Shown here: positions 5,135-26,299 of the stretch, piece after piece
Layout: each line of letters opens with the position of its first letter
Position numbering within the stretch: position 1 is the first letter of the stretch
Virus record (IMG/VR): IMGVR_UViG_3300047546_001437
Span: 1 to 64,000 of that record
Origin: a virus
Length of the DNA: 64,000 nucleotides
Reading direction: 5' to 3' (one strand)
The notes under the pieces: generated by a model
The model's input: only the letters and a program-made list of their open reading frames with translations
Told to the model about the DNA's origin: nothing
Database searches by the model: none
Made by a program: the position numbers and the translations under genes

Positions 5135-5276
5135 AAATGCCATAAATTTCAAGATAGAATTCGACTTCATAAGCATTGTTAGCCTCATCGCACATTTCTG
5201 CGATCTCTTGAGTTGTCTTATTTAAAACAACATACTGCTCTCTGAGCCAATCAGCATCTTTATATTTCGCTGACAC
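5124..5276 (-). CDS. small putative HTH protein
   Basis: Hand-translated MSAKYKDADWLREQYVVLNKTTQEIAEMC..., a pattern typical of phage HTH proteins. Confidence 0.55.
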   Translation of the reverse strand: MSAKYKDADWLREQYVVLNKTTQEIAEMCDEANNAYEVEFYLEIYGIFKD

Positions 5277-5799
5277 GATAAAAGTACCTCTTCTCTAAAA
5301 GTGCCTTAACACTTTCCTCATCTATTTTACCATCACAATTCATATGGAAATGAACATGGGGTATAGGTGGTTTGGTAGATTTTAAAGAAATACTAAGACT
5401 TGTCTCTGCCAAACCAGAAACTCTCATAATAGCCCAACCAGCCTTAATAATATAATCCAAAACCATATAGTCCTCATTTGTCTCAAATGTCTCTATATGT
5501 CGGACGGGAGATAAAAGAATATGCGTATTCTTAGTTGGCCTAGCAGCATAAGCAACCTCTATATACTCATCTACATATAGTTGAAGGTTTGGCTGATCTG
5601 CCACTAACTCTTTTATGTTGTTTGGTATATCTTCTTCTAACCTAGCATATTGAATTTCGCCAAGTAGTCTAGTATATTCTTCCTTGTTGTCCTGATATTT
5701 TCGTATTATTTTATTACCATAAGTACGTCTTATATCAGTTGGACAAAACATACATGACCCATCGATATAGCCATATCTTTTGGCTATAGGAGGTATCAT
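5260..5799 (-). CDS. HIT-family (histidine triad) nucleotide hydrolase
   Basis: N-terminal CMFC, HILLSPVRH, C-terminal PHVHFH triad. Confidence 0.75.
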   Translation of the reverse strand: MIPPIAKRYGYIDGSCMFCPTDIRRTYGNKIIRKYQDNKEEYTRLLGEIQYARLEEDIPNNIKELVADQPNLQLYVDEYIEVAYAARPTKNTHILLSPVRHIETFETNEDYMVLDYIIKAGWAIMRVSGLAETSLSISLKSTKPPIPHVHFHMNCDGKIDEESVKALLEKRYFYRVSEI

Positions 5800-5808
5800 G
5801 AGATTATA

Positions 5809-5982
5809 TTAAAATCCCAAACGGTCAGCGATTTGTCCAGCAACAGCAACTAATCCAGGTCTATTCTGAATAAGTGCTTCCTTCTTCTGCTCGTCTGTCA
5901 TATCCTTTGGAAGGGTTGCTGAAATTCCTTCTTCAACGGTATCGACAACTGCTGCTACGATCTTTTCTCTTGTAAGTTCCAT
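5809..5982 (-). CDS. hypothetical 57-aa protein
   Basis: Hand-translated MELTREKIVAAVVDTVEEGISATLPKDMTDEQKKEALIQNRPGL... Confidence 0.6.
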   Translation of the reverse strand: MELTREKIVAAVVDTVEEGISATLPKDMTDEQKKEALIQNRPGLVAVAGQIADRLGF

Positions 5983-5986
5983 TTTT

Positions 5987-6187
5987 TCACCATTTTCCTA
6001 TCGGACATTTTGCTTGCTTTAGAGTTGTCTTAAGTTTCATAAAACAACCACACTTTTTACATTTTATCATACGCTTGTTGAACCATTCACAAGTATTACA
6101 AATACTCAAACGTGACTCTATGAGATCTCTATCGCTTCTTGGCTGATTTGGATCAAACAGGTCTATAAATTTAACATCATCAGCCAT
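5987..6187 (-). CDS. Cys-rich small protein (CxxC...CKKCGCFM...CPIGKW), paralog of 13863-14099
   Basis: Motif shared within the window. Confidence 0.8.
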   Translation of the reverse strand: MADDVKFIDLFDPNQPRSDRDLIESRLSICNTCEWFNKRMIKCKKCGCFMKLKTTLKQAKCPIGKW

Positions 6188-10086: not shown

Positions 10087-11382
10087 ATGGCTGAAGACAT
10101 TGGTAATATTTACAAGACGAAGATCCCATCTTATGCTGAGGCAGCAGATATACAAGCAGCCCTAAAATTATTTCATTATGGAACAACAACAGTACCAACC
10201 ACAGAGGGTGAAATTCTTGCAGATTCTTTGGCTGGACATTTAAAAGCATTAGATACCAGACTTGACACAATAGAATCAGATCCAGCACGTTCAGACTTCC
10301 TGACTCAGGCTGAAATGGCAGTATCTTTTCCTACAAGAGTTAATGGATATATTTCAATGGATCCAAACTCAAATGGCGGATCTGTCGAAGAACTTTATGC
10401 ATCAGCAATTTATTCTAATGAACCACCAACAGTTGGATTGGTCAATGGTTTAATTTGGGTAGATAAAGATTCTCCTGCATTAGATACATATGTTTATGAC
10501 TCTACATCAACACCGTCTCCTTGGGTACGAATTAATGATATTAAAAAAATTGTTCAGTCTAAGGGAGACTTGTTGGTAGGAAGCACAAGCGCAGATGTTG
10601 ACAATCTGTCAGTTGGTGCTAATGGAACAGTTCTTACTGCAGATGACACACAAACACTTGGAGTTAAATGGCAAGCGGTATCAACATATTCGCAACCAAC
10701 TCTTGGATCAACAGCAATTCCTTCTGGATCAACAATAAGTAATGTTAATGGTTTAACAATTAACTCTACTACTATTCCAACATCTAAAACTTTAGTTGCT
10801 ACAGATTCTTATGCATACGTTATTCCATCTATGTCTGGTAACTCAGGAAAGTATTTGACAAATAATGGAGATACACCTTCATGGGCAACCCTTCCAACAT
10901 CTGGGGGAATGACATTATTGGCAAGCGGAACATTAACTGGTGCTAGTATTTCTATTGATTCGATTAGTGGGTCGTATCAAGATTTGCGATTGATTGTTCG
11001 TAACTTTAGACCTGCTACAGACGGCGCAGCGCTTAATGGAAGGGTAAATAACGATTCTTCTGCTATCTATGGTAATAGGACTGGAGTTGCTGAATCAGAT
11101 AACAGTTTTAGCAATACATCTTGGAATAATTTAAGTTATAATCAAGATAATGGATCAAGCACAAGTTTAATACGTTTAACATTTATTGATTATGCTAATA
11201 CTACAACATTAAAGGTTGCAGAACTTTATTCAGTAACAAATAATGAAACAACACCAACAAATATAAACTATACAACAGGTATTGCAATTGCCAGAACTAC
11301 AAGCGCTATTTCTTCAATACAACTATTTCCTAGTAGCGGTAATTTTACTTCTGGTAATTATTACCTTTATGGAGTCAAATAA
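10087..11382 (+). CDS. tail fibre-like protein
   Basis: KGDLLVG/VGANGTVLTAD and SGNSGKYLT fibre motifs; beta-rich C-terminus. Confidence 0.75.
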   Translation: MAEDIGNIYKTKIPSYAEAADIQAALKLFHYGTTTVPTTEGEILADSLAGHLKALDTRLDTIESDPARSDFLTQAEMAVSFPTRVNGYISMDPNSNGGSVEELYASAIYSNEPPTVGLVNGLIWVDKDSPALDTYVYDSTSTPSPWVRINDIKKIVQSKGDLLVGSTSADVDNLSVGANGTVLTADDTQTLGVKWQAVSTYSQPTLGSTAIPSGSTISNVNGLTINSTTIPTSKTLVATDSYAYVIPSMSGNSGKYLTNNGDTPSWATLPTSGGMTLLASGTLTGASISIDSISGSYQDLRLIVRNFRPATDGAALNGRVNNDSSAIYGNRTGVAESDNSFSNTSWNNLSYNQDNGSSTSLIRLTFIDYANTTTLKVAELYSVTNNETTPTNINYTTGIAIARTTSAISSIQLFPSSGNFTSGNYYLYGVK

Positions 11383-13619
11383 TGTCAACAGTTAGTTCAT
11401 CAAGCAAAGTAGCATACATGTATGACGCAGCGTCAGATACTTGGTATGCAGTTGCTGGTGTTGCTAACACAAATGTCCCATACTCTTGGACTCAAACACA
11501 TACATTTGGTTCTGTAGTTACAGCAAATGATGTTATTCGTGCTAAGGCTGGTGTAAATAGATTCCAAAATCCTGCTGCTAGAGATGCAGTTATAACATCT
11601 CCACAAGAAGGAACTGTATGCTATGTTGAACAAACAAATGGCGGAACAGATATTAAAGAGATTCAATGTTATGTAAATGGAAGTTGGAGAGGACTAACCA
11701 ATACCGCTTTATTTGTTGAAAAAGTTTCAAATCATACACTAAATATATCTGATCCAGGGAAAACAGTATTAATGAATTCAGGAACAAGTGTTAATGTTAC
11801 AGTTCCTTCAAATACTGATGTTCAATTTGCTATAGGACACACGATTAAAGTAGTTGCTATGGGTGCTGGTACTGTAAATTTTGTTGAAGGTTCTGGAGTA
11901 ACAATATTAAGTAAAAACTCTAGTAAAACAATTGCCTATAGATACGGAGAAGCAGAATTAAAGAAAACTGGAACAAACACTTGGCTACTTACTGGAGATT
12001 TAATTACTGGTGGAGGATTACTTTCTACTTTTAGTGTTACTTATGATTGTGATGGTGGAAGCAACTGTCCAGCAAACTCAAGTCACGCAAGCCCATATAC
12101 AATACCATCAACTATTCCTGTAAAATCTGGATACCAGTTCCTTGGTTATGAAGTATCAGCAGCACCTGGAGCACTTTGTGTATTCCCATCAGTAGTTCCA
12201 AATGCACAGCCAGGACATACTATTAATTGTGAGTCTAACCTAACCATTAAGGCAGTCTGGACACCATTACATACAGACCCACCATCAACTACCCAGGCAA
12301 CTACCCAGGCAACTACCCAGGCAACTACCCAGGCAACTACCCAGGCAACTACCCAGGCAACTACCCAGGCAACTACCCAGGCAACTACCCAGGGTACAAC
12401 AGAAGGAACTACACAGGGTACTACTCAAGGCACTACTGCATCAACAACCACCACTAGCGGTGGAGGACAGGTAGTTTGTGGCGACTGTGAGGCATATACT
12501 GTTGAACAGCCTACCTGTAATGGAGAAGATGTTTATGTTGGTATTTATACTGGAACAAGAAAACTATGTTCTGATGGATCATATCAGATTTGTACACAGC
12601 CAACACTTACTTCGTGGGGAGCATGCGTTGCAACAAATGTAAGTTCTTGTGGCGGTTCTGGTGGATCTGGATCTCCATGCATAGCAACAACAACCACAAC
12701 TGCTGGTCCGTACAACCCACCTACTGAGGCAACAACAACCACAACTGCTGGTCCGTACAACCCACCTACTGAGGCAACAACAACCACAACTAGTGGATAT
12801 GGGGCACCAACAAGTGCAACCACCACAACAACACAAAATTGTACGCCAGTTCAAACTACTAATGAAGTAAGAGTATGTAATGGAACTCCAACATCTGTTG
12901 TAATGTATGTAAACCCATGTACAGGTGCTGAATCGTGGACATGTCCAGAAACCACAACCACAACTGCGGCTCCTTACAACCCACCTGCTCAAGTAACTAC
13001 AACTACAACAGCAGCACCAGTAGCAACTACAACTACAACAGCAGCACCGACAATTACAACAACACAAAATTGTACGCCAGTTGCAACAAATAATGAGGTT
13101 AGAACCTGTAATGGTGTACCAACAAGTGTTGTAATTTATGTAAACCCATGTACAGGTGCAGAATCATGGAATTGTCCACCTGCTGCAACTACAACTGCTG
13201 CACCAGCAGTAACTACAACTGCTGCACCATATAATCCACCTGTTCAAGCAACAACAACTGCTGCACCAACAGTAACTACAACTGCTGCTTCAACTGTAAC
13301 TACAACAGCAGCATCAGGTGGCGGTGGATGTGTAAGTTATGCTGATTTTGCTTGTGGATGGGATTGGAGCGGTCAATATGACTGTGCTGGTAACTGTGTA
13401 GGAGTTAATCCACAACCTACAACAACAGAAGCATCATCTGGCTCAGGAGGCACTGGCTCAGGAGGCACTGGCTCAGGAGGCACTGGATCAGGAGGCACTG
13501 GCTCAGGCGGATCCAATACAACTGAGGCTACACAAGGTACAACTGCAGCAGATCCATGTTCACAATGCTCATCATGTGAATATTGCTATGCTGGGGCATG
13601 CTGGAGTGATGGCTGTTAG
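11382..13619 (+). CDS. fibre-associated mucin-like protein (Thr-rich repeats, Cys-rich modules)
   Basis: Fibre-tip-like N-terminal domain; (TTQA)8, ATTTTT-PYNPP repeats, duplicated QNCTPV...CNG...NPCTGAESWxC module, (GSGGT)4. Confidence 0.85.
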   Translation: MSTVSSSSKVAYMYDAASDTWYAVAGVANTNVPYSWTQTHTFGSVVTANDVIRAKAGVNRFQNPAARDAVITSPQEGTVCYVEQTNGGTDIKEIQCYVNGSWRGLTNTALFVEKVSNHTLNISDPGKTVLMNSGTSVNVTVPSNTDVQFAIGHTIKVVAMGAGTVNFVEGSGVTILSKNSSKTIAYRYGEAELKKTGTNTWLLTGDLITGGGLLSTFSVTYDCDGGSNCPANSSHASPYTIPSTIPVKSGYQFLGYEVSAAPGALCVFPSVVPNAQPGHTINCESNLTIKAVWTPLHTDPPSTTQATTQATTQATTQATTQATTQATTQATTQATTQGTTEGTTQGTTQGTTASTTTTSGGGQVVCGDCEAYTVEQPTCNGEDVYVGIYTGTRKLCSDGSYQICTQPTLTSWGACVATNVSSCGGSGGSGSPCIATTTTTAGPYNPPTEATTTTTAGPYNPPTEATTTTTSGYGAPTSATTTTTQNCTPVQTTNEVRVCNGTPTSVVMYVNPCTGAESWTCPETTTTTAAPYNPPAQVTTTTTAAPVATTTTTAAPTITTTQNCTPVATNNEVRTCNGVPTSVVIYVNPCTGAESWNCPPAATTTAAPAVTTTAAPYNPPVQATTTAAPTVTTTAASTVTTTAASGGGGCVSYADFACGWDWSGQYDCAGNCVGVNPQPTTTEASSGSGGTGSGGTGSGGTGSGGTGSGGSNTTEATQGTTAADPCSQCSSCEYCYAGACWSDGC
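12288..12395 (+). repeat. perfect 12-bp tandem repeat ACTACCCAGGCA x8 plus one variant
   Basis: Direct reading; encodes TTQA. Confidence 0.95.
13439..13510 (+). repeat. 15-bp tandem repeat encoding GSGGT
   Basis: TGGCTCAGGAGGCAC about x4. Confidence 0.9.
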
Positions 13620-13652
13620 TTGATATGATATACTTTATAAAAAGGAGAAAAA

Positions 13653-13859
13653 ATGTCTAAATTTAAATTTGCTATTGTTGTAGGAAATGATGTGGCTGGA
13701 ACTGTTGCTTTACAACAGGGCATAGATAGTACATTGGATGCTATTATTGCTGCCTATCAATCAGATCCAAAAATTATTCCAATCACAGATGATAATATTA
13801 ATTTTGGATGGACTTACGACGGCACTAACTTTTTCCCACCACTACCACCACAAGGATAA
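13653..13859 (+). CDS. small fibre-associated protein (GWTYDG motif)
   Basis: ORF track; AGGAG SD. Confidence 0.7.
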   Translation: MSKFKFAIVVGNDVAGTVALQQGIDSTLDAIIAAYQSDPKIIPITDDNINFGWTYDGTNFFPPLPPQG

Positions 13860-13862
13860 TAA

Positions 13863-14099
13863 ATGTCAGAGTTGTCTGCTTGGCAAAAATACAAGCAAAA
13901 TCTTGGCGAAACTCGTCCATGGGATTTGCTAAATCCAAATACACAATACGTTTCTGAGTATGAAAGTGACAAAAGATTTTCTATTTGTCAGGGGTGTCCA
14001 GAATTAATTGCACTTACAACTCAGTGCAAAAAATGTGGATGCATTATGAAATTAAAAACAAAACTAGAAAAGGCAACATGTCCATTAGGAAAATGGTAG
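13863..14099 (+). CDS. Cys-rich small protein (CKKCGC...CPLGKW)
   Basis: Paralog of 5987-6187. Confidence 0.8.
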   Translation: MSELSAWQKYKQNLGETRPWDLLNPNTQYVSEYESDKRFSICQGCPELIALTTQCKKCGCIMKLKTKLEKATCPLGKW

Positions 14100-14114
14100 A
14101 TATAATCAATAATT

Positions 14115-14996
14115 ATGGACAAAATATTTGTATCTATTGCATCTTATAGAGATCAAGAATTACTAGATACTGTTTTTTCTATTTTAAAACAAGCAAAAAA
14201 TCCAGAAAGACTATTTTTATCAATATTTTCTCAGGATGACAATCACCCAAATTTAGAACACTTGTTTGAGTTGTTTAACGTGAAACATTATGTTTATAAA
14301 AAAATACATTATAGCGATGCTCGTGGTGTTGGTTATGCTAGAGCAGAAACCCAAAAACCTTTAAATAATTCTTATAAATATTATTTACAAGTAGACAGTC
14401 ATACACAGTTTATTGAACACTGGGATGAAAAAATCGTAGATCATTACGAAAAGGCTATAGGGTATTGGGGAGACCTGATCTTTACAGCCTATCCAGGCAC
14501 CTATGAGTACACAGAAACAGGCAACCTAAAGTTTGCTACCGTTCTTGTTCCAACATGCCTTAGAATCCAACCTGCGACTGAAAACAGCCCAATCAGGTTT
14601 GAACCAAAATATAAGGACTATGTTGGCGGAGACATAGGTGAGTTTCATGGATATTTTTGTGCTGGTTTGGCTTTTGGATACTCTGAACATTTTTTAAAAG
14701 TTCCGTATGATGATCAAATTTATTTCAATGGAGAAGAGCAAACACTAGCAATAAGATTTTATTGTAATGACATTAAATTGGTTGCTCCACCATACAATTA
14801 TTGTTTTCATCATTATACTGGTAAAAAACGCATAAGACATTGGGAGCAAAGTGAAACCTGGAAAAAATATGATGAAATTGGTACAAAAAGATTAAATGAT
14901 TTTTACGAATATAAACTAGATGCCACATACGGTATTTCCAATAAAGAAAAGTACCATATGTGGCAATCTTGTTTTGTAACTCCTAGAGTTACTTAG
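14115..14996 (+). CDS. GT60 / Gnt1-like polypeptide GlcNAc transferase
   Basis: IFVSIASYRD, YYLQVDSH..F...WD, FCAGLAFG, VPYD..IYFNGEE motifs. Confidence 0.8.
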   Translation: MDKIFVSIASYRDQELLDTVFSILKQAKNPERLFLSIFSQDDNHPNLEHLFELFNVKHYVYKKIHYSDARGVGYARAETQKPLNNSYKYYLQVDSHTQFIEHWDEKIVDHYEKAIGYWGDLIFTAYPGTYEYTETGNLKFATVLVPTCLRIQPATENSPIRFEPKYKDYVGGDIGEFHGYFCAGLAFGYSEHFLKVPYDDQIYFNGEEQTLAIRFYCNDIKLVAPPYNYCFHHYTGKKRIRHWEQSETWKKYDEIGTKRLNDFYEYKLDATYGISNKEKYHMWQSCFVTPRVT

Positions 14997-15549
14997 GGAA
15001 TTTTTCCATCCACTGTTTTGTTCTTTGGGTTAGACCCTTCCAAGAACTCCAGTCCTGTCCTCCATTGGACATATGATATGCAATTTCTGCATTTATTACT
15101 GGATTAAATAAGTCTGCATTATGGTCTAACTCAAATTTGTCACGACGATCTAGACCAAGAACACCAAGCATATTAATCTGAAAGATACCATACGAACTGT
15201 CACCAGTTGAGATATTTCCGTTAAATGCTAGTGGACGACCATTACTTTCTTTTTTAGCAACAGCCCATGCCTCCTTTAGATTTTGACCTTCAAAGCCCAC
15301 TAACTTCAGTAGATTTTTTAGGTCTTTGTCAGATAGAGATGTAGCGTTTTGATATTTTTCTAACTGATCTTCTTTAGCCTTAGAAACGACTTTGGCCACT
15401 TCCGTGGCCTCTATTGTTTCTGTCAGCACGACACTAGTGCCGTCTAATCGGTTTTCAGAAGCATTAGCAGCGTTTGACCAAACGGCAAACATTGCCAATA
15501 TGCTGAGTGTACCAATGATTTGCCTGTTATTATTCATAAAGTTAATCAT
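14989..15549 (-). CDS. secreted lysozyme-like / SLT transglycosylase
   Basis: Signal peptide; catalytic KKES, SYGIFQIN, NP..NA, WSSW; AGGAGG SD before ATG 15549; TTGACA/TATACT promoter. Confidence 0.85.
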   Translation of the reverse strand: MINFMNNNRQIIGTLSILAMFAVWSNAANASENRLDGTSVVLTETIEATEVAKVVSKAKEDQLEKYQNATSLSDKDLKNLLKLVGFEGQNLKEAWAVAKKESNGRPLAFNGNISTGDSSYGIFQINMLGVLGLDRRDKFELDHNADLFNPVINAEIAYHMSNGGQDWSSWKGLTQRTKQWMEKFPK

Positions 15550-15661
15550 AGTTTCCTCCTTAGAAACGAATGACACCTTTTTAGGGGTGCCATGTTACTT
15601 CTTAGTATAACATAAATTTATTCTTATTGTCAAATACCTAAAAGTGGTATAATAAAACCAT

Positions 15662-16192
15662 ATGGCAACAGGAAATACAAATGATGGGGTATTTAATTTA
15701 CCCTTTCCAATAGCAGAAGATCCAGTAAATGTACACGGAGATATTGAGCAGTTAGCAGATAGATTACGTGTTGTTTTACCACCGCTTGGCATTTCTGCTT
15801 TTCAGATGAATGTTAAAAATGTGAGCGGTATCACATTAGAGGCAAGAACTCCCGTATATGTAACAACCTCAGTTAATGGTGTTACACATGTCACAAAAGC
15901 AACATCATCAACAACTCAACCTATTCTTGGATTATTAAAAGAGACATTAGATAATAATGAAGAAGGTTTGGTAATTGTTGCTGGTGTTTTAGATAATATT
16001 AATACAAGTGATTTATCTCCAGCAGGTGCTGTTGTTTATGTTGGTACAACTGGAGGATTAACAACTACTAGACCATCAACAGGTTCTGGGGCAGTTGGAA
16101 TTGTTGCAAATGTATCTCCAACAGCAGGAATTATAATTGTTGAGGCTAAAGGCAACGGTACCTGGGGAGCACTCAGAGACGGTTTAGCCTAA
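15662..16192 (+). CDS. putative virion protein
   Basis: ORF track; beta-rich; extended -10 upstream. Confidence 0.75.
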   Translation: MATGNTNDGVFNLPFPIAEDPVNVHGDIEQLADRLRVVLPPLGISAFQMNVKNVSGITLEARTPVYVTTSVNGVTHVTKATSSTTQPILGLLKETLDNNEEGLVIVAGVLDNINTSDLSPAGAVVYVGTTGGLTTTRPSTGSGAVGIVANVSPTAGIIIVEAKGNGTWGALRDGLA

Positions 16193-19659: not shown

Positions 19660-21777
19660 ATGGCAACAAGAATGCAACAGCGCAGAGGAACTGCAGCACA
19701 ATGGACTGCAGCAAATCCAATTTTAGCAGCAGGAGAAATCGGATATGAAACCGACACTGGTAAATTTAAAATTGGTGACGGTACTAACACTTGGTCTCTC
19801 CTCAAGTACTTCCTTAACTTAGAAGCATTAGACATAGATGCAGAGGGCTTTATTACAGATGATCAAAAAGGCGTTAATAACGGTGTAGCAACACTAGACT
19901 CAAATGGTCTTGTTCCAGTTATACAGATGCCAGATCAATATATTACAGATAAAATTATTACAAAAATTGGAGAGGTTGTAGGGGCTGCCCCATCAACACT
20001 AAATACCCTTAATGAAATTGCAGCAGCATTTGACAACGATCCAAACTATGCAGATACAATTTCTGCAGCATTAGATTTAAAGGCACCAAAGGCAAGCCCA
20101 GCAATTACTGGAACAGCAACATTTGTAAATGCAACATTTAGTGGAGATGTAGATGTTCAAACTATGCCATTAAATGATAGTTCAACAAGACCTGCTACAA
20201 CTGCATATGTTTCAGGAAGAATTCAAAATGTTAATACAGTTATATCAACATTAGCATCAGAAATAGACGCAAGTCTTGAAACGCTTGGAGCAAACGATGC
20301 ATCACAGGCAAGTTCTTTAGAAGCGCTTGATGTTCGTTTAGATTCAGCAGAGGCATCAATTACTGGAAATACAGCATCAATTGCAACAATTAATACAACT
20401 CTATCTGACCATACATCAGATATATCAGCATTAGATGTAAGAGTTGACGCAACTGAGTCTGATATTTCTACAATTAATGCAGATATCACATCTATTGAAT
20501 CAAATATTGATACAGTAGAAGCAAATATAACAGGAATTCAAAGCGATGTAACAACATTGCAAAATGATTTAAATGCTGCAGAAACAGATATCTCAGCATT
20601 GCAATCAGGAGCAACAACTACAACATCAACTATTTCAACAATACAAAATAATCTTACATCAATGAGTACTGAAATAGATGGAATTGATACAAGATTAACA
20701 GCAGCCGAAACTGATATTGATGCACTACAAACAAGTGCTACATCAGCAAGTGGACATGCTTCTGCAACAACAAATGTTCATGGAATTGCAAATACAGCAG
20801 ATCTTGCAACAAAGTCTTATGCAGATAATGCTAAGACTGAGGCAATTTCTACTTCAGCAACAGCAATTGCCTTAAAGGCAGATATTGCTTCTCCAACATT
20901 TACTGGAACAGTAGTTCTTCCAGCAACAACATCTATCGGAACAGTATCTGCAACAGAGATCGGATATGTTGATGGTGTAACATCAGCAATTCAAACTCAG
21001 TTAGATGCAAAGGCTCCTTTGGCATCACCAGCATTAACTGGTACACCAACTGCTCCTACCGCTACTGCTGGTACCAATACTACTCAGGTAGCAACTACAG
21101 CATTCGTTAAGACTGCCGTTGATAATGTAGTAGCAGCAGCACCTGGTGCACTAGATACTCTTAATGAGTTAGCAGCAGCACTTGGTAATGATGCAAACTT
21201 CTCAACAACATTAACAAACAATTTAGCAGCAAAGGCACCACTTGCTTCTCCAACATTTACTGGAACAGTAACATTGCCTTCATCTACAAGTATTGGAAAT
21301 GTTAGTTCAACAGAAATTGGCTATATTGATGGTGTAACGTCATCAATCCAGACACAATTAGATGCAAAAGCACCTTCTGCAAGTCCAACACTTACAGGAA
21401 CAGTTGCTCTTCCAGCAGCATCTTCTGTAACTTTAAATGGTACAGCACTCTCAACAACATTGGCTCTTAAGGCAGATAATGCAGCAACAATTAACACTAT
21501 GAGTGGTTCACACACAATTGTTTCTGCAGATGTTAGCAACGTACGTGAAATGAGCAATGGAGGAACAATTACAATTCCTTCAGACAACTCTTTCTGGCCA
21601 GTAGGAGCAACCATGGATGTTATTCAAACTGGTTCTTCACAAGTAACAATCGGAGCAGGATCTGGAGTAACATTAAATGCTACACCAGGACTTAAACTTC
21701 GTGCACAATGGTCTTCTGCAACAATTCTTAAGAGAGCAGCAAATACATTCGTTGCTCTTGGCGACTTGTCAGCATAA
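19660..21777 (+). CDS. tail fibre with major-tropism-determinant-like N-terminus
   Basis: QRRGTAAQW..NPILAAGEIGYETDTGKFKIGDG; coiled coil; KAPLASPxFTG repeats. Confidence 0.85.
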   Translation: MATRMQQRRGTAAQWTAANPILAAGEIGYETDTGKFKIGDGTNTWSLLKYFLNLEALDIDAEGFITDDQKGVNNGVATLDSNGLVPVIQMPDQYITDKIITKIGEVVGAAPSTLNTLNEIAAAFDNDPNYADTISAALDLKAPKASPAITGTATFVNATFSGDVDVQTMPLNDSSTRPATTAYVSGRIQNVNTVISTLASEIDASLETLGANDASQASSLEALDVRLDSAEASITGNTASIATINTTLSDHTSDISALDVRVDATESDISTINADITSIESNIDTVEANITGIQSDVTTLQNDLNAAETDISALQSGATTTTSTISTIQNNLTSMSTEIDGIDTRLTAAETDIDALQTSATSASGHASATTNVHGIANTADLATKSYADNAKTEAISTSATAIALKADIASPTFTGTVVLPATTSIGTVSATEIGYVDGVTSAIQTQLDAKAPLASPALTGTPTAPTATAGTNTTQVATTAFVKTAVDNVVAAAPGALDTLNELAAALGNDANFSTTLTNNLAAKAPLASPTFTGTVTLPSSTSIGNVSSTEIGYIDGVTSSIQTQLDAKAPSASPTLTGTVALPAASSVTLNGTALSTTLALKADNAATINTMSGSHTIVSADVSNVREMSNGGTITIPSDNSFWPVGATMDVIQTGSSQVTIGAGSGVTLNATPGLKLRAQWSSATILKRAANTFVALGDLSA

Positions 21778-21816
21778 AACAGTAGTATAATTTAAAAAAT
21801 AAGGAGATTGATCTAG

Positions 21817-22944
21817 ATGGCACTATCAAGAGGTAAAGGTGGAAGAAACATTAGAAAGGCGTCGGTGCCTTCCTTTGACCAAACATATACAAGAAGTTCA
21901 TACCAATCATATTTATCAAGCATTGGTCTGTTTTATTCAGAAAACTCTACCAACACCTCTGATAGTGGTCTAGATCAGCGCTGGAATTCACAAAATATTG
22001 CTCCAGGTACAGTAGTTCCATTTGGAACAACTATTGGTATTAATTACTACATTTATGTATACCCTGGTTTTAGCCATTATGGTGGTTTCTATCATGGCTT
22101 CTATCATGGATTTGGTCACTATGCTGGATTTACACACTATGCAGCATTTAGCCACTATGCTGGTTTCACACACTATGCAGCATTTGGACACTATGCAGCA
22201 TTCGGACACTATGCAGCATTCGGACACTATGCTGGATTCTATCATGGTTTCTATCACTCATTTGCACACTATTCTTCATTTGCACACTATTCTTCATTTG
22301 CACACTACGCAAACTTTAGCCACTACTATAGTGGATTCTCTCATGGTTATGGCGGATTCGGACATGGTTATGGCGGATTCGGACATGGTTATGGCGGATT
22401 CTATCATGGATTCGGACACGGTTATGGCGGATTCGGACACTACGGTGGCTTTGGTGGTGGCGGAGGTGCCAGAGGCTACTCAATTGGTGGAGAAACTGGT
22501 CTATTAAGTCCAACAGGAGTTATCTTGGCTGAAAACTTAAAGGTAGGAGACAAGTTATTAGCACTAGATATTTCAGAAATAGATATGGCTGGATTTAATC
22601 CTTCACAATGGTCTTCAGAAACAATATCTGGAAACGGTATAGTAGAGACAACAGTAGTATCAATTAATAGCAGAGTCTCAGATCGTGCTATTGTTATAAA
22701 TGGAGATATTTACTCTATACATCACTGGATCTTAGCAAGAAAAGATGGCGTTATTAGATTCGTAAGTTCTTCAGACATAGATACAACATATGAAGTTTAT
22801 AACTTCCAGACTCTAGACTGGGTCGAGGTTCAGTCTGCTGAAAGTATCGCTTACATTGATAGAGTTTATACAATTAACTGTGAGCCTTACGATATGTTCT
22901 TTACTAACTCAATGTTAGTATATGACCGAGTAGAAACTGACTAA
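21817..22944 (+). CDS. F-x-H / His-Tyr-Gly repeat protein with N-terminal PASTA-like and C-terminal Hint-like domains
   Basis: About 22 F-x-H units; SIGGET..AENLKVGDKLL...VYTINCEPYDMFFTNSMLVYD resembles a Hint fold. Confidence 0.8.
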   Translation: MALSRGKGGRNIRKASVPSFDQTYTRSSYQSYLSSIGLFYSENSTNTSDSGLDQRWNSQNIAPGTVVPFGTTIGINYYIYVYPGFSHYGGFYHGFYHGFGHYAGFTHYAAFSHYAGFTHYAAFGHYAAFGHYAAFGHYAGFYHGFYHSFAHYSSFAHYSSFAHYANFSHYYSGFSHGYGGFGHGYGGFGHGYGGFYHGFGHGYGGFGHYGGFGGGGGARGYSIGGETGLLSPTGVILAENLKVGDKLLALDISEIDMAGFNPSQWSSETISGNGIVETTVVSINSRVSDRAIVINGDIYSIHHWILARKDGVIRFVSSSDIDTTYEVYNFQTLDWVEVQSAESIAYIDRVYTINCEPYDMFFTNSMLVYDRVETD

Positions 22945-22945
22945 T

Positions 22946-23692
22946 TTGGCCAGACTACCCAATCACGATTACTATTCTGATGAGTGGGCAAACGAACCAT
23001 TCATAATACCTGATCAATTATTGGCATTACAGCAAAAAAGAATTGGCAGTGCAACACCATATAGCATAAGCCCTCAAATTGCAACATTTACTAGAAAGTA
23101 TAGTGAAAAAATACAAAATGCTCCAGATCACGATGCTGTAGAATTTGCAAAATATGAGGTAGATTGGCAAAAAGAATATCGTGAGCAAAAACATTTATTT
23201 GTTCCGCAAAATCGATGGGCACATGAAGTTGTTGAGCCACCAGTTCACATAAAAGATAATTTATACAAAATAAATGTATCTGCTGATGTTTATCCACATT
23301 TAGAACCTTTAGAGCATCAGTATGAAGAATCTGGAACAATCATACGTGAAAAAGAATATAGGTTTATTACTAGAACACTTTATAAGTATGTGGATGCTAC
23401 AAAAAATGTTGTTTTGGAAAAGGATTTAGATCCAGAGTGGTGTTCGAGAGTTTATGTTTGGAAAATTAGATGGCTACCACAAAAACCAGCAGTTTTAACA
23501 TTTTTTTCAAATGAGGATATGGTATACTGGAAGACACCAGAAACAATAGTTGATACAAAAGATATTGCAGAAGATGCACAAGGAGTGATAGACGTGCCAG
23601 TTATATTTAAAAAAGGACTTAAGCGCAGTATGCACTACATAAAGCATGATACAACAATACTATATATGAAGGTAGATTTTCATGAAGAATAA
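22946..23692 (+). CDS. hypothetical protein in the putative modification cluster
   Basis: ORF track; coupled to neighbours; weak resemblance to the C-termini of the next two genes. Confidence 0.75.
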   Translation: MARLPNHDYYSDEWANEPFIIPDQLLALQQKRIGSATPYSISPQIATFTRKYSEKIQNAPDHDAVEFAKYEVDWQKEYREQKHLFVPQNRWAHEVVEPPVHIKDNLYKINVSADVYPHLEPLEHQYEESGTIIREKEYRFITRTLYKYVDATKNVVLEKDLDPEWCSRVYVWKIRWLPQKPAVLTFFSNEDMVYWKTPETIVDTKDIAEDAQGVIDVPVIFKKGLKRSMHYIKHDTTILYMKVDFHEE

Positions 23693-24398
23693 AACAAACA
23701 TTATAACATTTATACCTAAAAATGAATTTGTTATAGAGTATACAGATAAACCAGAACCTATGATAAAAAATCTTCCTTCTTGGTGGAGAAAGGTTCATCC
23801 ATATGTTAATGGAGAAAAAACTTTACGTAATGGTCAATATAGTGAGACTGTAAAAAAGTGTCCTGGAATATTAGATTTGCTATCTACAGGATATTTATTA
23901 AAAACACCATGCGATATTTTTCTAGATGCAACTGGACCAAAACTAGATTGGCAAGTTCACCATGCACACAAAGAATCTGTTACAGTTCATTCTCAACCAC
24001 AAGTTGAAGGCTGGGATTTTGACAAAAATGATTGGATGGAAGATATATTTAGAATTCATCCAATGTGGGTAGTAGCAACAGAAAAAGGTTATAGTACTTT
24101 ATTTGTGCAGCCATCATTTCATACAAGCCTACCATTTGAAATAGTTCCAGCAATTATTGATACAGACATGTATCCTTCAGATGGACCATTCTCTATGAGA
24201 GTTAAAAGAGGCTTTAAAGGTGTCCTAGAGGCAGGAACTCCACTAGTTCAATGTATTCCTTATAGAAGAGAAAAGTGGGAAGCAAATATACTTGAAAAGC
24301 CAGATTTGAAAGTTTTAAACTCTATACCTTGGAAATTAAGGCATAAGTTTGGCGGGGCATACAAAAAACTTATGTGGGAAAAGAAGGTGTTTAATTAA
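23682..24398 (+). CDS. conserved phage hypothetical protein (TVKKCPG..D...GY family)
   Basis: Paralog of 24398-25159: LPxWW, KxC, GYxLxxPxD, LPF, GTPxxxxIPxxR. Confidence 0.8.
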   Translation: MKNKTNIITFIPKNEFVIEYTDKPEPMIKNLPSWWRKVHPYVNGEKTLRNGQYSETVKKCPGILDLLSTGYLLKTPCDIFLDATGPKLDWQVHHAHKESVTVHSQPQVEGWDFDKNDWMEDIFRIHPMWVVATEKGYSTLFVQPSFHTSLPFEIVPAIIDTDMYPSDGPFSMRVKRGFKGVLEAGTPLVQCIPYRREKWEANILEKPDLKVLNSIPWKLRHKFGGAYKKLMWEKKVFN

Positions 24399-25159
24399 TG
24401 GATAAATTTGAAGAAAGATATGCAAACCCAGAACCACTTGAAAATTTAAAGGTTCAGTTTTATACATCTAATGCATATGTAAATACAACTCCTGGTCCAG
24501 TGCCAGCAATTGACAATCTTCCAGAATGGTGGAAGGATCGTCCTATATATCAAAAAAATGATCAAATTGATAGACTATCTATCATGAATAATCGTGGTGC
24601 AGATGCTGCATCAATTAGTGTAAAGCATTGTATGCCATTTTTTGATGCAATAACTTGTGGATATCATTATTTATTGCCAACAGATGTTCATGTTGCAAAA
24701 ACAGAAGACCCAGATAGACCAGATATTTGGTGGGATGAAGATGCTCCAAGACCAATTGAGATGCGTGGTCATTTAGAGTTACCAGTTCCATCTGGATGCT
24801 ATCCAATTCATTTTGTTTGGGATATGAGATGGGGAACAAAGATGCCAGACGGATGGTCTGCAATGATCACACACCCTATAGACAGATATGATTTACCATT
24901 CTTTACTATGACAGCCATACAGGATTCTGACAGATGGTTTACTGGAAACGTTGTTACCTTCTTTTTAAGAAAAGATTTTGAAGGTACAATTAAAAAGGGT
25001 ACACCAATAATGTCAATTATTCCAATAAAAAGAGCAAACTGGAATATGGAAATAGACCATTCCCTACAAACTGAGGGTTTATGGGATCTTGAAAGAAAAA
25101 GAAATTACATTTATGGATTTTATAAAAAACATAGATGGATCAGAAAGAAATATAGATAG
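24398..25159 (+). CDS. conserved phage hypothetical protein, paralog of 23682-24398
   Basis: Same motif series. Confidence 0.8.
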   Translation: MDKFEERYANPEPLENLKVQFYTSNAYVNTTPGPVPAIDNLPEWWKDRPIYQKNDQIDRLSIMNNRGADAASISVKHCMPFFDAITCGYHYLLPTDVHVAKTEDPDRPDIWWDEDAPRPIEMRGHLELPVPSGCYPIHFVWDMRWGTKMPDGWSAMITHPIDRYDLPFFTMTAIQDSDRWFTGNVVTFFLRKDFEGTIKKGTPIMSIIPIKRANWNMEIDHSLQTEGLWDLERKRNYIYGFYKKHRWIRKKYR

Positions 25160-25167
25160 GATAAATA

Positions 25168-25830
25168 ATGGAAAAACATTACGAATATGGTGATGCTAAT
25201 CAACCAAGTAATAGCAAGTCTACTAAAGAGCATAAATTCTTCGATAGAAATATAGAGATTAATAATCTTGAACAACTTGAGAAATTATTAATTACTCAAT
25301 ATGAAAGAATTAATCGTGGAGAGATTATTAAGGGGAACAAAAATGAGCATACCCCTTGGGATCAATCTGGTAGTGCAACTACAATAAATTGGAATAAGTA
25401 TAATGTCTTTCAATTCTATGATGAGAATATCTATACTCTTTTCAGAGCGGTAAGAGACATGACAGTTGATGCTTGTCAGCATTATGAATTAGATTTTATA
25501 AAAGAACAATTTTATGTTCAGGGATGGTTCAATGTTAACTATAACCATATTGGAAAGTTAGATTGGCATGAACATGGTGGAGAAGGTGCACCACATTTCC
25601 ATGGCTATTATTGTGTAAAGGCAGAGCCATCTAAAACTCATTATAGAGTTTTTGAAAAAGAAATTGAAGTAAATAATAAAAATAACCGTGCCATTCTTTC
25701 AGAAACTGGCCATCCTCACGCAATGGGTGACTGGGATTGGGATGGACCAAGAATCACAATAGCATATGACGTAATTCCACTAAGATTTATACCAAAAGAG
25801 TGGGAACAACACTGGATACCACTAATCTAA
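25168..25830 (+). CDS. putative 2OG-Fe(II)/cupin-fold oxygenase (HxH type)
   Basis: GWFNVN...WHEH...GYYCV...H...RITIAYD double-stranded beta-helix pattern. Confidence 0.7.
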   Translation: MEKHYEYGDANQPSNSKSTKEHKFFDRNIEINNLEQLEKLLITQYERINRGEIIKGNKNEHTPWDQSGSATTINWNKYNVFQFYDENIYTLFRAVRDMTVDACQHYELDFIKEQFYVQGWFNVNYNHIGKLDWHEHGGEGAPHFHGYYCVKAEPSKTHYRVFEKEIEVNNKNNRAILSETGHPHAMGDWDWDGPRITIAYDVIPLRFIPKEWEQHWIPLI

Positions 25831-25840
25831 GGAGGAAGTT

Positions 25841-25954
25841 ATGGACGTAAGAATAGAAATTGCTGGTCAATATCAGTTCACTGTTATTAAAGAACTAGCA
25901 GATCTTCTGGCTAAAGAATGCCCAGATACAGTTAAACTTGTCATTGAGGAATAA
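25841..25954 (+). CDS. hypothetical 37-aa protein
   Basis: AGGAGG SD; MDVRIEIAGQYQFTVIKELADLLAKECPDTVKLVIEE. Confidence 0.6.
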   Translation: MDVRIEIAGQYQFTVIKELADLLAKECPDTVKLVIEE

Positions 25955-25957
25955 TTA

Positions 25958-26299
25958 ATGCGTATAGCATCTTTAACTTTCTTAATGCTATTAGTATCTT
26001 TGATGGTAGGTTTAGTGATCTATAAATATACTATAGACACAAGACTTACCATTAAAGAACTAAAAAAAGATCGTGATACCTATAGAAATAATATTTGGAA
26101 TTTCATGAAGGGTATGGATAAAGAAAGAAAACGTATGGAACAAATAAATGAACAAACAAATAATTTGGCCTATACTAATTTAAAGAAAAAGATTAAAAAA
26201 CTTCATGATGACATAGAGGATACAGATTTTACAACTTTTGAAAATGTAAAAGAAGAAATTTTGTCTTCATTAAAGGATATAGACTCATATGGCGATTAG
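25958..26299 (+). CDS. single-TM coiled-coil protein
   Basis: Hydrophobic N-terminus. Confidence 0.7.
   Translation: MRIASLTFLMLLVSLMVGLVIYKYTIDTRLTIKELKKDRDTYRNNIWNFMKGMDKERKRMEQINEQTNNLAYTNLKKKIKKLHDDIEDTDFTTFENVKEEILSSLKDIDSYGD

What the first reader, a model, noticed from the sequence alone, without database searches (positions are those of the whole stretch)
11382..14996. Phage 'mucin' with its own GT60 O-GlcNAc transferase
Seen: a 745-aa fibre-associated protein with long Thr-rich tracts between Cys-rich modules, and 0.5 kb downstream a glycosyltransferase with GT60 motifs. Known: GT60 enzymes (Dictyostelium Gnt1, trypanosome mucin OGNT) put alpha-GlcNAc on hydroxyproline or Thr and are related to mucin GalNAc transferases. 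Inference: the phage builds a eukaryote-style O-glycosylated stalk on its virion, e.g. for shielding, stiffening or adhesion.
Basis: partly seen in the sequence, partly recalled or inferred. Interest (0 to 1): 0.85.

Follow-up and report, generated by a model that had tools for sequence, protein, structure and literature searches.

The report
Phage threonine-rich tail appendage with sugar transferase
An uncultured freshwater phage encodes a tail protein with long threonine-rich linkers and, in the same gene run, an enzyme built like those that start mucin sugar coats, so it probably sugar-coats its own tail appendage, though no sugar has been measured.

Summary
ORF 11382-13619 (745 aa) has a tail-spike-like N-terminus and a C-terminal half with 27% Thr and small Cys-rich modules. 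ORF 14115-14996 (293 aa), 496 nt downstream, matches Pfam PF11397 (the GlcNAc family; CAZy number GT60 recalled) at E 1.6e-36. Its DxH...H site is intact, and its model sits closest to mucin-type polypeptide GalNAc-transferases (Z 20.3).

Between the two genes lie a small conserved ORF and a DUF6171 Cys-rich protein.

- In GT60-selected viral contigs, Thr tracts are 8.7-fold enriched in the 3 kb upstream, in 12 homology groups of partner proteins.
- In relatives picked without reference to the enzyme, 31 of 31 tract-protein clusters carry DUF6171, but only 11 of 31 carry GT60. Others carry 2OG oxygenases, sugar epimerases, GT61 or radical-SAM enzymes.
- Tracts therefore exist without GT60, though GT60 goes with denser Thr.
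- DUF6171 is often fused to GT60 (28 of 120 longer proteins listed).

Best reading (about 0.55): GT60, helped by DUF6171, O-glycosylates the appendage linkers in the cytoplasm. Sugar, residue and virion location are untested. This scan noted the same theme in at least eight other genomes. My literature searches found no report.

The parts
11382..13619 (+). 745-aa tail appendage protein, the candidate glycosylation substrate
   Evidence: ORF. Composition. No Pfam family at E<=0.1.
11382..12011 (+). Residues 1-210: tail-fibre tip or adaptor domain. It is a separate gene of about 209 aa in most relatives.
   Evidence: phrog_8780 'minor tail protein' E 1.3e-17, residues 116-207. 32-34% identity to C-termini of Gordonia phage minor tail proteins; 247 records matched. 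AF2 residues 109-207 against the Pseudomonas phage Pa223 capsid spike: Z 14.4, rmsd 1.7, 95 aligned. Similar to residues 618-703 of the fibre at 19660-21777. Stand-alone copies are listed.
12024..12269 (+). Residues 215-296: small beta domain resembling the InlB B-repeat
   Evidence: AF2 pLDDT mostly 85-94 here. VIA-align gives the T. denticola sialidase domain at Z 6.6 and the InlB B-repeat at Z 6.0 with 70 aligned. These are modest scores.
12282..12461 (+). Residues 301-360: TTQA/TTQG Thr tract (30 Thr in 60 residues)
   Evidence: A 12-bp repeat x 9.0 copies at 100% identity. Copy number differs from the otherwise identical protein of L004.
12477..12680 (+). Residues 366-433: 8-Cys module
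   Evidence: Cys positions. Conserved in L004 and L009, absent in L008.
12681..12839 (+). Residues 434-486: ATTTTT(A/S)GPYNPPTE repeat linker
   Evidence: 45-bp repeat x 2.4 copies at 100% identity. The motif is kept in L009 and L008. L004 has one unit more.
12840..13175 (+). Residues 487-598: two paralogous 4-Cys modules (487-521, 564-598) joined by a Thr/Ala/Pro linker
   Evidence: Both modules are missing in L009 and L008.
13176..13616 (+). Residues 599-745: further Thr linkers, a 4-Cys module (650-672), a GSGGT repeat and a C-terminal 6-Cys knot (726-745)
   Evidence: (15-bp repeat x 4.7 copies).
13653..13859 (+). 68-aa conserved small protein of unknown function
   Evidence: A Shine-Dalgarno-like AAAGGAG lies upstream. 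Homologous to both halves of the 144-aa protein at the same position in L022 (E 2e-9 and 8e-7). No Pfam or PHROG hit.
13863..14099 (+). 78-aa DUF6171 protein with six conserved Cys, the candidate accessory or docking partner of the enzyme
   Evidence: PF19668 at 26.2 bits against a cut-off of 27. phrog_13558 E 2.2e-15. Alignment A3: C42, C45, C55 and C73 invariant; C58 and C60 at least 90%. Present in 31 of 31 tract-protein clusters. Fused to PF11397 in 28 of 120 listed longer proteins and in L030. Complex prediction gave weak support: 0.54 against 0.00 for the best control.
14115..14996 (+). 293-aa GT-A glycosyltransferase of family PF11397 (GT60)
   Evidence: Pfam E 1.6e-36. phrog_24687 E 3.3e-29. 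D94-S95-H96 invariant and H232 at least 90% in 30 sequences. AF2 pLDDT 94, pTM 0.92. Nearest structures are ppGalNAc-T2, GalNAc-T1 and T. gondii GalNAc-T3.

Best explanation
The locus is a small late operon of a long-tailed freshwater phage. It makes a tail appendage and the machinery that decorates it.

The appendage protein is a spike- or fibre-tip adaptor domain fused to a string of small Cys-rich modules. The modules are separated by mucin-like Thr-rich linkers.

In the host cytoplasm the GT60 enzyme most likely transfers a HexNAc from a host UDP-sugar onto Thr hydroxyls of these linkers. The enzyme is a metal-dependent GT-A fold with a DxH...H site. GlcNAc as the sugar is assumed by family analogy. 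DUF6171, a small Cys-rich and probably zinc-binding protein, most likely acts as an accessory or docking partner of the enzyme.

The sugar-coated linkers would then be extended, stiff and protease-resistant spacers that hold the Cys-rich knobs away from the tail.

Shown here: the family and fold of the enzyme, intact catalytic residues, the virion-type N-terminus of the substrate candidate, conserved synteny, and recurrent fusion of DUF6171 to GT60.

Inferred: the acceptor protein, the acceptor residue, the sugar, the role of DUF6171 and the benefit to the phage.
For: Enzyme:
- PF11397 at E 1.6e-36.
- The profile aligns DSH, GEE and H232 with the DxH, GGEN and His motifs of a polypeptide GalNAc-transferase (6s22_A), at a marginal E of 0.035.
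- AF2 pLDDT is 94.
- Foldseek's top hit is human ppGalNAc-T2 bound to a mucin peptide, E 4.3e-9.
- VIA-align gives GalNAc-T1 at Z 20.3 with 271 of 293 residues aligned and T. gondii GalNAc-T3 at Z 18.9. Other GT-A enzymes score 16.9 or less.

Substrate candidate:
- It is the Thr outlier of the window.
- Its N-terminus matches phage minor tail proteins and spike structures.
- The genes are packed with gaps of 33, 3 and 15 nt and no strong terminator between them.

Synteny in 78 viral loci picked by GT60, reduced to 40 clusters at 80% identity:
- Tracts of at least 13 Thr in 30 residues occur 14 times in 101.8 kb of the 0-3 kb upstream zone.
- They occur 7 times in the other 442.5 kb. None of those is in the 0-3 kb downstream zone.
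- The rate ratio is 8.7, binomial p 2e-6.
- The upstream tract proteins fall into 12 homology groups after low-complexity masking.

Other support:
- In marker-selected relatives GT60-positive clusters have denser Thr: median 15 against 11 Thr per 30 residues, one-sided Mann-Whitney p 0.0018.
- L008 keeps GT60, DUF6171 and the Thr tracts but has lost all C-terminal Cys modules. The tracts, not the modules, are the constant companion.
- DUF6171 link: 28 of 120 listed longer DUF6171 proteins carry PF11397, and L030 is such a fusion.
- Complex prediction gave weak support. The score was 0.54 against 0.00 for the best of 3 controls. That mark was reached by 58 of 80 solved complexes and 2 of 110 mismatched pairs. 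Scores of 0.60 or under came from only 7 of the 80 solved complexes and from both mismatches that passed. Partner pLDDT was at least 71 and contact agreement at least 74%.
- Related cassettes carry sugar-nucleotide epimerases, GT61 and 2OG oxygenases, which fits protein tailoring.
Against: - No chemistry exists. Donor sugar, acceptor residue and virion location are all untested.
- The tract does not need GT60. 24 of 31 GT60-negative marker-selected loci with at least 6 kb upstream still have an S/T/P-rich protein, against 7 of 7 GT60-positive loci (Fisher p 0.21).
- 20 of 31 tract-protein clusters lack GT60.
- GT60 does not need a tract. 19 of 30 GT60 clusters with at least 3 kb upstream have no tract of at least 13 Thr per 30 residues within 3 kb. 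Six inspected loci (L078, L040, L068, L080, L072, L070), mostly long-form or tandem GT60 genes, show no S/T/P-rich neighbour at all.
- The Thr-density test treats related phages as independent.
- The fibre region is a known hot spot for accessory genes, so adjacency alone is weak evidence.
- In most relatives the Thr/Cys-rich part is a separate protein, so its attachment to the virion is assumed.
- The complex prediction is only weak support.
Confidence: 0.55

Rival explanations
1. The enzyme works as in the protist Skp1 pathway. A prolyl 4-hydroxylase first makes hydroxyproline in the Pro-containing motifs (GPYNPP, AAP), and GT60 then glycosylates hydroxyproline, not Thr.
For: In related viral loci a PF13640 2OG-Fe(II) oxygenase sits between DUF6171 and GT60 or beside it. 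Examples are L011 (two copies, E 3e-17 and 9e-18), L024 and L022, and L131 and L159. 3 of 120 listed longer DUF6171 proteins are fused to PF13640. In cellular genomes 11 of 80 GT60 loci hold an oxygenase, and in most of them (SAR86 and other gammaproteobacteria) it lies directly upstream. The GPYxPP motif is conserved down to 40% identity.
Against: No PF13640 match at E<=0.1 in the 72,666-base record, and none with my own oxygenase profile in the window. The slot between DUF6171 and GT60 is only 15 nt here. The longest tract (TTQA x9) has no Pro. The Pro fraction of the tracts is not higher in oxygenase-positive clusters (p 0.13). Only 2 of 11 GT60-positive clusters also have the oxygenase. 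One caveat: the record is estimated 67% complete, so a hydroxylase could lie in the missing part or come from the host.
Confidence: 0.1
2. GT60 has a target other than the neighbouring protein. Candidates are a host envelope polymer (as prophage TarP glycosylates teichoic acid), another phage protein, or DNA. It sits by the fibre genes only because that region collects accessory genes.
For: TarP and TarS, which are wall teichoic acid GlcNAc-transferases, are also strong structural matches (Foldseek E 2e-8; Z 14.2-15.3). 19 of 30 GT60 clusters lack a nearby strong Thr tract. Two papers read in passages give DNA protection or surface modification as the usual roles proposed for phage glycosyltransferases (PMC10202952; PMC12619734).
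Against: Polypeptide GalNAc-transferases outrank all other GT-A enzymes by 2 or more Z units and cover 271 of 293 residues. Tract enrichment is directional: same strand and upstream only, with 0 in 103.6 kb downstream. It recurs with 12 homology groups of partners. DUF6171, which always follows the tract gene (31 of 31 clusters), is fused to GT60 in many proteins. The gene lies in a late structural operon.
Confidence: 0.2
3. The Thr-rich stretches are plain flexible linkers produced by repeat slippage. They are not modified at all, and GT60 is inactive or irrelevant to them.
For: The repeats are 100% identical at DNA level and vary in copy number between otherwise identical proteins, as expected of slippage. 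Many relatives have such linkers without GT60.
Against: The catalytic residues are invariant across 30 diverse sequences, and the family is large and well conserved: 102 protein clusters and 585 viral stretches. This argues for an active enzyme under selection. Thr richness is kept although the linker sequence turns over, which suggests selection on composition.
Confidence: 0.1

Closest known systems
Protist CAZy GT60 polypeptide alpha-GlcNAc-transferases (T. cruzi mucin OGNT; Dictyostelium Gnt1 acting on Skp1 hydroxyproline). Names and activities are recalled, not taken from a call. A review listing them was seen only as a search hit (PMC6939170).
   Same: Same Pfam family, PF11397. Soluble GT-A enzyme with a DxH motif. 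Candidate acceptor is a Thr-rich, mucin-like polypeptide. Some relatives pair it with a prolyl-hydroxylase-type oxygenase, as in the Skp1 pathway.
   Different: The phage enzyme is compact at 293 aa. It matches only profile positions 2-40 and 93-303 of 352. It is encoded by a bacterial virus, has a DUF6171 partner unknown in the protist systems, and this copy has no hydroxylase. Activity is untested.
Animal and apicomplexan mucin-type polypeptide GalNAc-transferases (GT27; PDB 6e7i, 8v9q, 8uhv)
   Same: Nearest solved structures: Z 20.3 and 18.9, Foldseek E 4.3e-9. The DxH, GGEN-like and His motifs align. These enzymes start O-glycans on Thr/Ser-rich tandem repeats.
   Different: Sequence identity is 11-15%. 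There is no lectin domain and no membrane anchor. The enzyme would act in the cytoplasm, not the Golgi. It is not a member of GT27 by sequence (profile E only 0.035).
Virion O-glycosylation of mycobacteriophages by phage-encoded glycosyltransferases (Freeman et al. 2023, Cell Host Microbe). I saw it only as cited in passages of PMC12619734 and PMC12801897. The paper itself was not held.
   Same: A phage encodes glycosyltransferases thought to decorate its own structural proteins.
   Different: There the glycans sit on C-termini of capsid and tail-tube subunits. Here the candidate is a tail appendage with internal mucin-like linkers. Whether those phage enzymes belong to another family I recall but did not check. 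Here nothing has been measured.
RiPP-like tailoring cassettes (a precursor plus a recognition element plus interchangeable enzymes). This is an analogy only.
   Same: A constant small partner (DUF6171) follows the low-complexity protein. It is accompanied by a variable set of enzymes: GT60, 2OG oxygenase, radical SAM/SPASM, GT61 and epimerases. It is fused to two of them.
   Different: The 'precursor' is a 290-850-aa structural protein, not a short peptide. No leader, protease or exporter was seen. Binding of DUF6171 to the substrate is untested.

Membership tests
Pfam PF11397 / CAZy GT60 glycosyltransferase | Match to the family HMM above its curated cut-off | tested here: met
   127 bits against a cut-off of 21, E 1.6e-36. 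The six-frame search of the record scored 91.9 and 35.4 bits. Profile positions 41-92 and 304-352 are not matched, so this is a compact form.
Pfam PF11397 / CAZy GT60 glycosyltransferase | GT-A fold with a DxH/DxD metal site and a downstream His | tested here: met
   AF2 pLDDT 94. GT-A matches fill the list. D94-S95-H96 are invariant and H232 is at least 90% conserved in 30 sequences. These residues align to the DxH and His of a ppGalNAc-T.
Pfam PF11397 / CAZy GT60 glycosyltransferase | Uses UDP-GlcNAc and forms an alpha linkage (retaining mechanism) | not testable with these tools
   Donor and stereochemistry cannot be read from the sequence. The family property is recalled.
Pfam PF11397 / CAZy GT60 glycosyltransferase | Acceptor is Thr or hydroxyproline of a polypeptide | not testable with these tools
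   Only indirect support: upstream Thr-tract enrichment and nearest structures being polypeptide transferases.
Skp1-type hydroxyproline glycosylation pathway (prolyl 4-hydroxylase plus GT60) | A prolyl-4-hydroxylase-type 2OG-Fe(II) oxygenase accompanies the GT60 | tested here: not met
   No PF13640 at E<=0.1 in the 72,666-base record. No hit of my oxygenase profile in the window. Only 15 nt separate DUF6171 and GT60. The record is estimated 67% complete, so a distant copy cannot be excluded. Relatives do have the oxygenase.
Mucin-like domain | Long tandem repeats rich in Thr/Ser/Pro | tested here: met
   27% Thr in residues 301-745, with 30 Thr in residues 301-360. Tandem repeats.
Mucin-like domain | Dense O-glycosylation of the repeats | not testable with these tools
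   Needs mass spectrometry or lectin work.
Phage virion glycosylation systems (mycobacteriophage type) | The target protein is a component of the particle | tested here: inconclusive
   The N-terminal 210 residues match minor tail proteins and a capsid-spike structure. There is no proteomics, and in most relatives the Thr/Cys-rich part is a separate gene.
Pfam PF19668 DUF6171 (the 78-aa protein) | Match to the family HMM above its curated cut-off | tested here: inconclusive
   26.2 bits against a cut-off of 27 and 25 bits in the six-frame search. However, it aligns at 42-94% identity with the members of A3, among them the window's second copy, which scores 40.4 bits. phrog_13558 gives E 2.2e-15.

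The most novel reading that the evidence does not exclude
DUF6171 is a shared docking domain that brings interchangeable tailoring enzymes to a fast-evolving tail appendage. The enzymes include a mucin-type GT60 transferase, prolyl-hydroxylase-like oxygenases, radical-SAM/SPASM enzymes, GT61 and sugar-nucleotide-modifying enzymes. Together with slippage-prone repeats, this would be a widespread, modular post-translational diversification system for the outermost surface of aquatic phages. It would work like a RiPP pathway acting on a virion protein, tuning adhesion, host range or survival in water.
Probability: 0.3. Interest if true: 0.8.

Novelty: new variant of a known kind. Interest (0 to 1): 0.62.

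Why it matters
Phage particles are usually treated as bare protein. Direct evidence for phage-made glycans on virions is, as far as I could see, limited to mycobacteriophages, which I know only through citing passages.

This locus belongs to a large family. By contrast only 2 of 50,697 cultured phage records matched. In this family an enzyme of the kind that starts mucin-type O-glycans sits behind Thr-rich tail appendages.

If the glycosylation is real, three things follow:
- Many aquatic phages carry a sugar-coated, mucin-like outer layer. That bears on adsorption, on sticking to particles and mucus, on resistance to proteases, and on how host range evolves.
- It would give an easily expressed bacterial-virus source of mucin-type initiating transferases.
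- It would give DUF6171 a first function.

The claim is directly testable with two or three recombinant proteins.

Tried and rejected
- DNA similarity of 11382-14996 to 50,697 phage records found no match.
- Sequence search of the enzyme against PDB chains found nothing at E<=1. The profile search gave only marginal hits.
- ESM Atlas look-up of residues 360-745 gave no usable hit and no model. The Cys-rich modules remain unassigned. I did not fold them.
- Pfam on the second cassette (ORFs 21817-26299) found no family at E<=0.05 apart from weak sub-threshold hits for 25958-26299. BLAST of L022's DUF6065 protein and four other cassette proteins against the window ORFs found nothing at E<=0.01.
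- The motif TGATATACT before the 68-aa ORF occurs twice in the window, but 20 of 100 shuffles do as well. The promoter scan found 27 sites against 26.1 expected. No promoter claim is made.
- Complex prediction of GT60 with DUF6171 gave 'weak support' only. No interface was given.
- Sequencing runs: 14 DNA rows hold at least half of the sampled words, in eight coded studies of river, freshwater, aquatic and estuary metagenomes.
- Laid contigs: contigs of two RNA libraries (X15, X16) match the fibre gene and the small ORFs with 0-1 differences, and none covers 14165-14770 of the enzyme gene. Contigs cannot show transcription, and a part without cover proves nothing, so I draw no conclusion on expression. 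Two skipping joints in one DNA run (12709 to 13024 and 13428 to 13624) have sides of 25 and 30 letters and are too weak to use.
- Host: the portal is 47% identical to Streptomyces phage portals and the tail domain resembles Gordonia phage proteins. This hints at an actinobacterial host. The two closest genome-collection hits (54% and 45% identity) lie on MAG contigs that look like phage contigs. I name no host.
- Pro content of the tracts against oxygenase presence showed no association (p 0.13).
- Literature searches found nothing on the topic. The term sets were: GT60 with phage; GT60, Gnt1 and Skp1; prolyl 4-hydroxylase, phage, glycosyltransferase and tail fiber; DUF6171, PF19668 or PF11397; phage, threonine-rich, O-glycosylation and tail; phage, tail fiber, glycosylated, mass spectrometry and O-linked. 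Subscription journals are mostly not held. Supplements were not opened.
- Not used: the search of protein representatives and a third homologous-protein search.

Full report
**What is there**

The window is the first 64 kb of a 72,666-base viral record that CheckV rates 67% complete. It is a long-tailed phage:
- portal, protease and capsid genes;
- a 2,695-aa tape measure protein;
- many fibre-like genes, some collagen-like.

ORF 11382-13619 (745 aa) and ORF 14115-14996 (293 aa) exist as described and lie 496 nt apart. Two small ORFs fill the gap: 13653-13859 (68 aa) and 13863-14099 (78 aa). The intergenic gaps are 33, 3 and 15 nt, and no convincing terminator lies between the genes. A lysozyme-like gene (SLT_3, E 6.3e-15) lies on the opposite strand and overlaps the 3' end of the transferase gene by 8 nt.

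**The 745-aa protein**

It is 20.9% Thr, against a mean of 7.5% (sd 3.4%) for 51 ORFs of the window, and it has 32 Cys.

Residues 1-210 are a virion module:
- phrog_8780 'minor tail protein', E 1.3e-17;
- 32-34% identity to C-termini of Gordonia phage minor tail proteins (247 phage records matched, 222 of them Gordonia);
- in an AF2 model (mean pLDDT 75, with residues 111-300 mostly above 85), residues 109-207 superpose on the capsid spike of Pseudomonas phage Pa223 (Z 14.4, rmsd 1.7 over 95 residues) and on a Klebsiella phage baseplate protein (Z 10.5). Residues 55-209 resemble the N-terminal adaptor domains of tailspike TSP4 of phage CBA120 (Z 8.6);
- the same domain ends the 705-aa fibre at 19660-21777 (E 2e-4).

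Residues 215-296 modestly resemble an InlB B-repeat (Z 6.0).

From residue 301 the protein is a string of Thr-rich linkers (TTQA x9, ATTTTTAGPYNPPTE, TTTAAP, GSGGT) and small Cys-rich modules. The linkers are encoded by perfect tandem DNA repeats.

Comparison with three relatives:
- The protein of locus L004 is identical except for repeat copy number. The window has three more TTQA units, and L004 has one more 15-residue unit.
- L009 (71% identity) lacks both 4-Cys modules.
- L008 (40% identity) lacks all C-terminal Cys modules, carries Phe-Pro repeats instead, and keeps the Thr tracts and the GPYxPPTEATTTTT motif.

The constant feature is therefore Thr richness, not the modules.

**The 293-aa protein**

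- It matches PF11397 at E 1.6e-36.
- It has 102 relatives in the large protein collection, nearly all unnamed.
- D13, D94-S95-H96, R214 and others are invariant in 30 diverse sequences, and H232 and G206-E207-E208 are at least 90% conserved.
- The AF2 model is confident (pLDDT 94, pTM 0.92).
- Foldseek ranks human ppGalNAc-T2 with a mucin peptide first (E 4.3e-9), with the teichoic-acid GlcNAc-transferase TarP close behind.
- The Foldseek-independent search puts GalNAc-T1 with a mucin glycopeptide at Z 20.3 (271 residues aligned) and Toxoplasma GalNAc-T3 at Z 18.9. Generic GT-A enzymes score 16.9 or less.
- No GT60 structure appears to be solved.
- A profile of the family aligns its DSH, GEE and His motifs with the DxH, GGEN and His motifs of a polypeptide GalNAc-transferase, at a marginal E of 0.035.

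The link to mucin-type initiating enzymes is borne out by structure.

**Does the pairing recur?**

The best 78 loci were kept. They reduce to 40 clusters at 80% enzyme identity. One locus per cluster was counted:

| Zone relative to the GT60 gene | ORFs with at least 13 Thr in 30 residues | DNA examined |
|---|---|---|
| 0-3 kb upstream | 14 | 101.8 kb |
| 3-10 kb upstream | 5 | 172.1 kb |
| 0-3 kb downstream | 0 | 103.6 kb |
| 3-10 kb downstream | 2 | 166.8 kb |

The rate ratio is 8.7 (binomial p 2e-6). 11 of 30 clusters with at least 3 kb upstream have such a tract on the same strand within 3 kb.

With a looser rule (at least 12 Thr, or at least 20 S/T/P, in 30 residues), 37 of 78 loci have a same-strand tract ORF ending within 3 kb upstream. 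After low-complexity masking these proteins fall into 12 homology groups: two large groups and ten singletons, some of them truncated. The association is therefore not one inherited gene pair.

Against this, 19 of 30 clusters lack a strong tract. Six inspected loci, mostly with long-form or tandem GT60 genes, show no S/T/P-rich neighbour.

**A control set chosen without the enzyme**

I used a conserved 176-aa structural gene (15662-16192) to fetch 80 loci of related phages. They share one gene order:
1. a fibre-tip domain of about 209 aa, usually a separate gene;
2. an S/T/P-rich and Cys-rich protein of 290-850 aa;
3. often a small ORF (the window's 68-aa ORF matches both halves of L022's 144-aa protein, E 2e-9);
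4. DUF6171;
5. a variable block of enzymes;
6. the minus-strand lysozyme-like gene;
7. the marker gene.

Enzyme content of the 31 tract-protein clusters at 80% identity:
- 31 have DUF6171;
- 11 have GT60;
- 11 have a PF13640-type oxygenase (2 have both GT60 and the oxygenase);
- 11 have neither.

Other members of the variable block are NAD-dependent sugar epimerases/dehydratases, a GT61 plus cupin protein, a radical SAM/SPASM enzyme, and unassigned proteins.

Among loci with at least 6 kb upstream, a tract protein is present in 7 of 7 GT60-positive and 24 of 31 GT60-negative loci (Fisher p 0.21). Tract presence therefore does not depend on GT60. What differs is Thr density: median 15 against 11 Thr per 30 residues (one-sided Mann-Whitney p 0.0018). 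Related phages are counted as independent in that test.

**DUF6171**

- The 78-aa protein falls just below the Pfam cut-off (26.2 against 27 bits). It aligns well with family members, and six Cys are conserved.
- Among longer proteins holding the domain, 28 of the 120 best listed also carry PF11397 and 3 carry PF13640.
- In L030 the domain runs into the transferase with two residues between them.
- A complex prediction of the window's two proteins gave weak support. The score was 0.54 (runs 0.55, 0.54, 0.46) and the best of 3 controls scored 0.00. The mark was reached by 58 of 80 solved complexes and 2 of 110 mismatched pairs. Scores of 0.60 or under came from only 7 of the 80 solved complexes and from both mismatches that passed. 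Partner pLDDT was at least 71 and contact agreement at least 74%.
- Because the fusions made binding likely beforehand, I take it as probable that DUF6171 works with the enzyme. Whether it docks the substrate is inference.
- In 80 cellular loci DUF6171 is seen only twice, both on phage-like MAG contigs. In 11 of the 80 an oxygenase accompanies GT60, directly upstream in most of them.

**Thr or hydroxyproline?**

Some relatives carry prolyl-hydroxylase-type oxygenases next to GT60, as in the protist Skp1 pathway (recalled). This record has none, and its longest tract lacks Pro. Thr is therefore the likelier acceptor here. The missing third of the genome leaves some doubt.

**Comparison and novelty**

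The closest known systems are:
- protist GT60 enzymes (same family; activities recalled);
- GT27 mucin-type transferases (nearest structures);
- mycobacteriophage virion glycosylation, which I know only from citing passages, because the paper was not held.

Six literature searches found no report of GT60, PF11397 or DUF6171 in phages, or of glycosylated Thr-rich tail fibres. Earlier notes of this scan describe the same theme in at least eight other genomes. They are AI notes, not evidence, but my own tests agree with them.

**Verdict**

The mechanism is plausible but unmeasured. GT60 is one optional module of a larger, variable appendage-tailoring cassette whose constant element is DUF6171.

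Noticed in passing
window 5260-6187 (-): A second DUF6171 gene (5987-6187, 66 aa; PF19668 at 40.4 bits, above the cut-off) lies in the early region. It is two genes from a 179-aa protein with a weak HIT-domain match (E 0.001, below the cut-off) and an HVHFH motif. DUF6171 may therefore also pair with enzymes away from the fibre locus.
   Followed up: partly
window 19660-26299 (+): A second fibre has an Mtd_N start, a coiled coil and the same C-terminal tip domain as residues 118-207 of the 745-aa protein (E 2e-4). It is followed by a 375-aa ORF and four ORFs of 220-253 aa with no Pfam family. Earlier notes read this as a second appendage-plus-modifier cassette. I confirmed only the shared tip domain.
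   Followed up: partly
window 14989-15576 (-): A lysozyme-like SLT_3 protein (E 6.3e-15) with a hydrophobic N-terminus lies on the minus strand and overlaps the end of the transferase gene by 8 nt. A strong promoter-like site (11 of 12 matches, TG-extended) lies at 15633-15604. A minus-strand gene of similar size holds the same position in nearly all related loci, whatever enzymes precede it.
   Followed up: partly
L004:403-2649 compared with window 11382-13619: The two proteins are identical except for repeat copy number: three TTQA units more in the window and one 15-residue ATTTTTAGPYNPPTE unit more in L004. This indicates ongoing slippage-type length variation between populations.
   Followed up: yes
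L008:7439-9604: The homologous appendage (40% identity) replaces the Cys-rich modules with long Phe-Pro repeats (PFFPPFFPFFP...) while keeping the Thr tracts, DUF6171 and GT60.
   Followed up: no
L169-L171, L192, L203, L215, L227, L230, L236 (cellular genome contigs): In SAR86 and other gammaproteobacterial genomes the GT60 homologue (about 30% identity) is directly preceded by a 2OG-oxygenase gene matching my phage oxygenase profile. This is a bacterial hydroxylase plus GT60 pair without DUF6171.
   Followed up: partly
L131:4641-5576 and L120:5644-7275: Related cassettes contain a radical SAM/SPASM enzyme and a GT61 plus cupin protein between DUF6171 and the marker gene. This hints at further chemistry, such as crosslinks or other sugars, on the Cys-rich appendage.
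   Followed up: no
window 42029-50116 (+): The tape measure protein is 2,695 aa long, which implies an unusually long tail. The portal is 47% identical to those of Streptomyces phages with genomes of about 130 kb.
   Followed up: no
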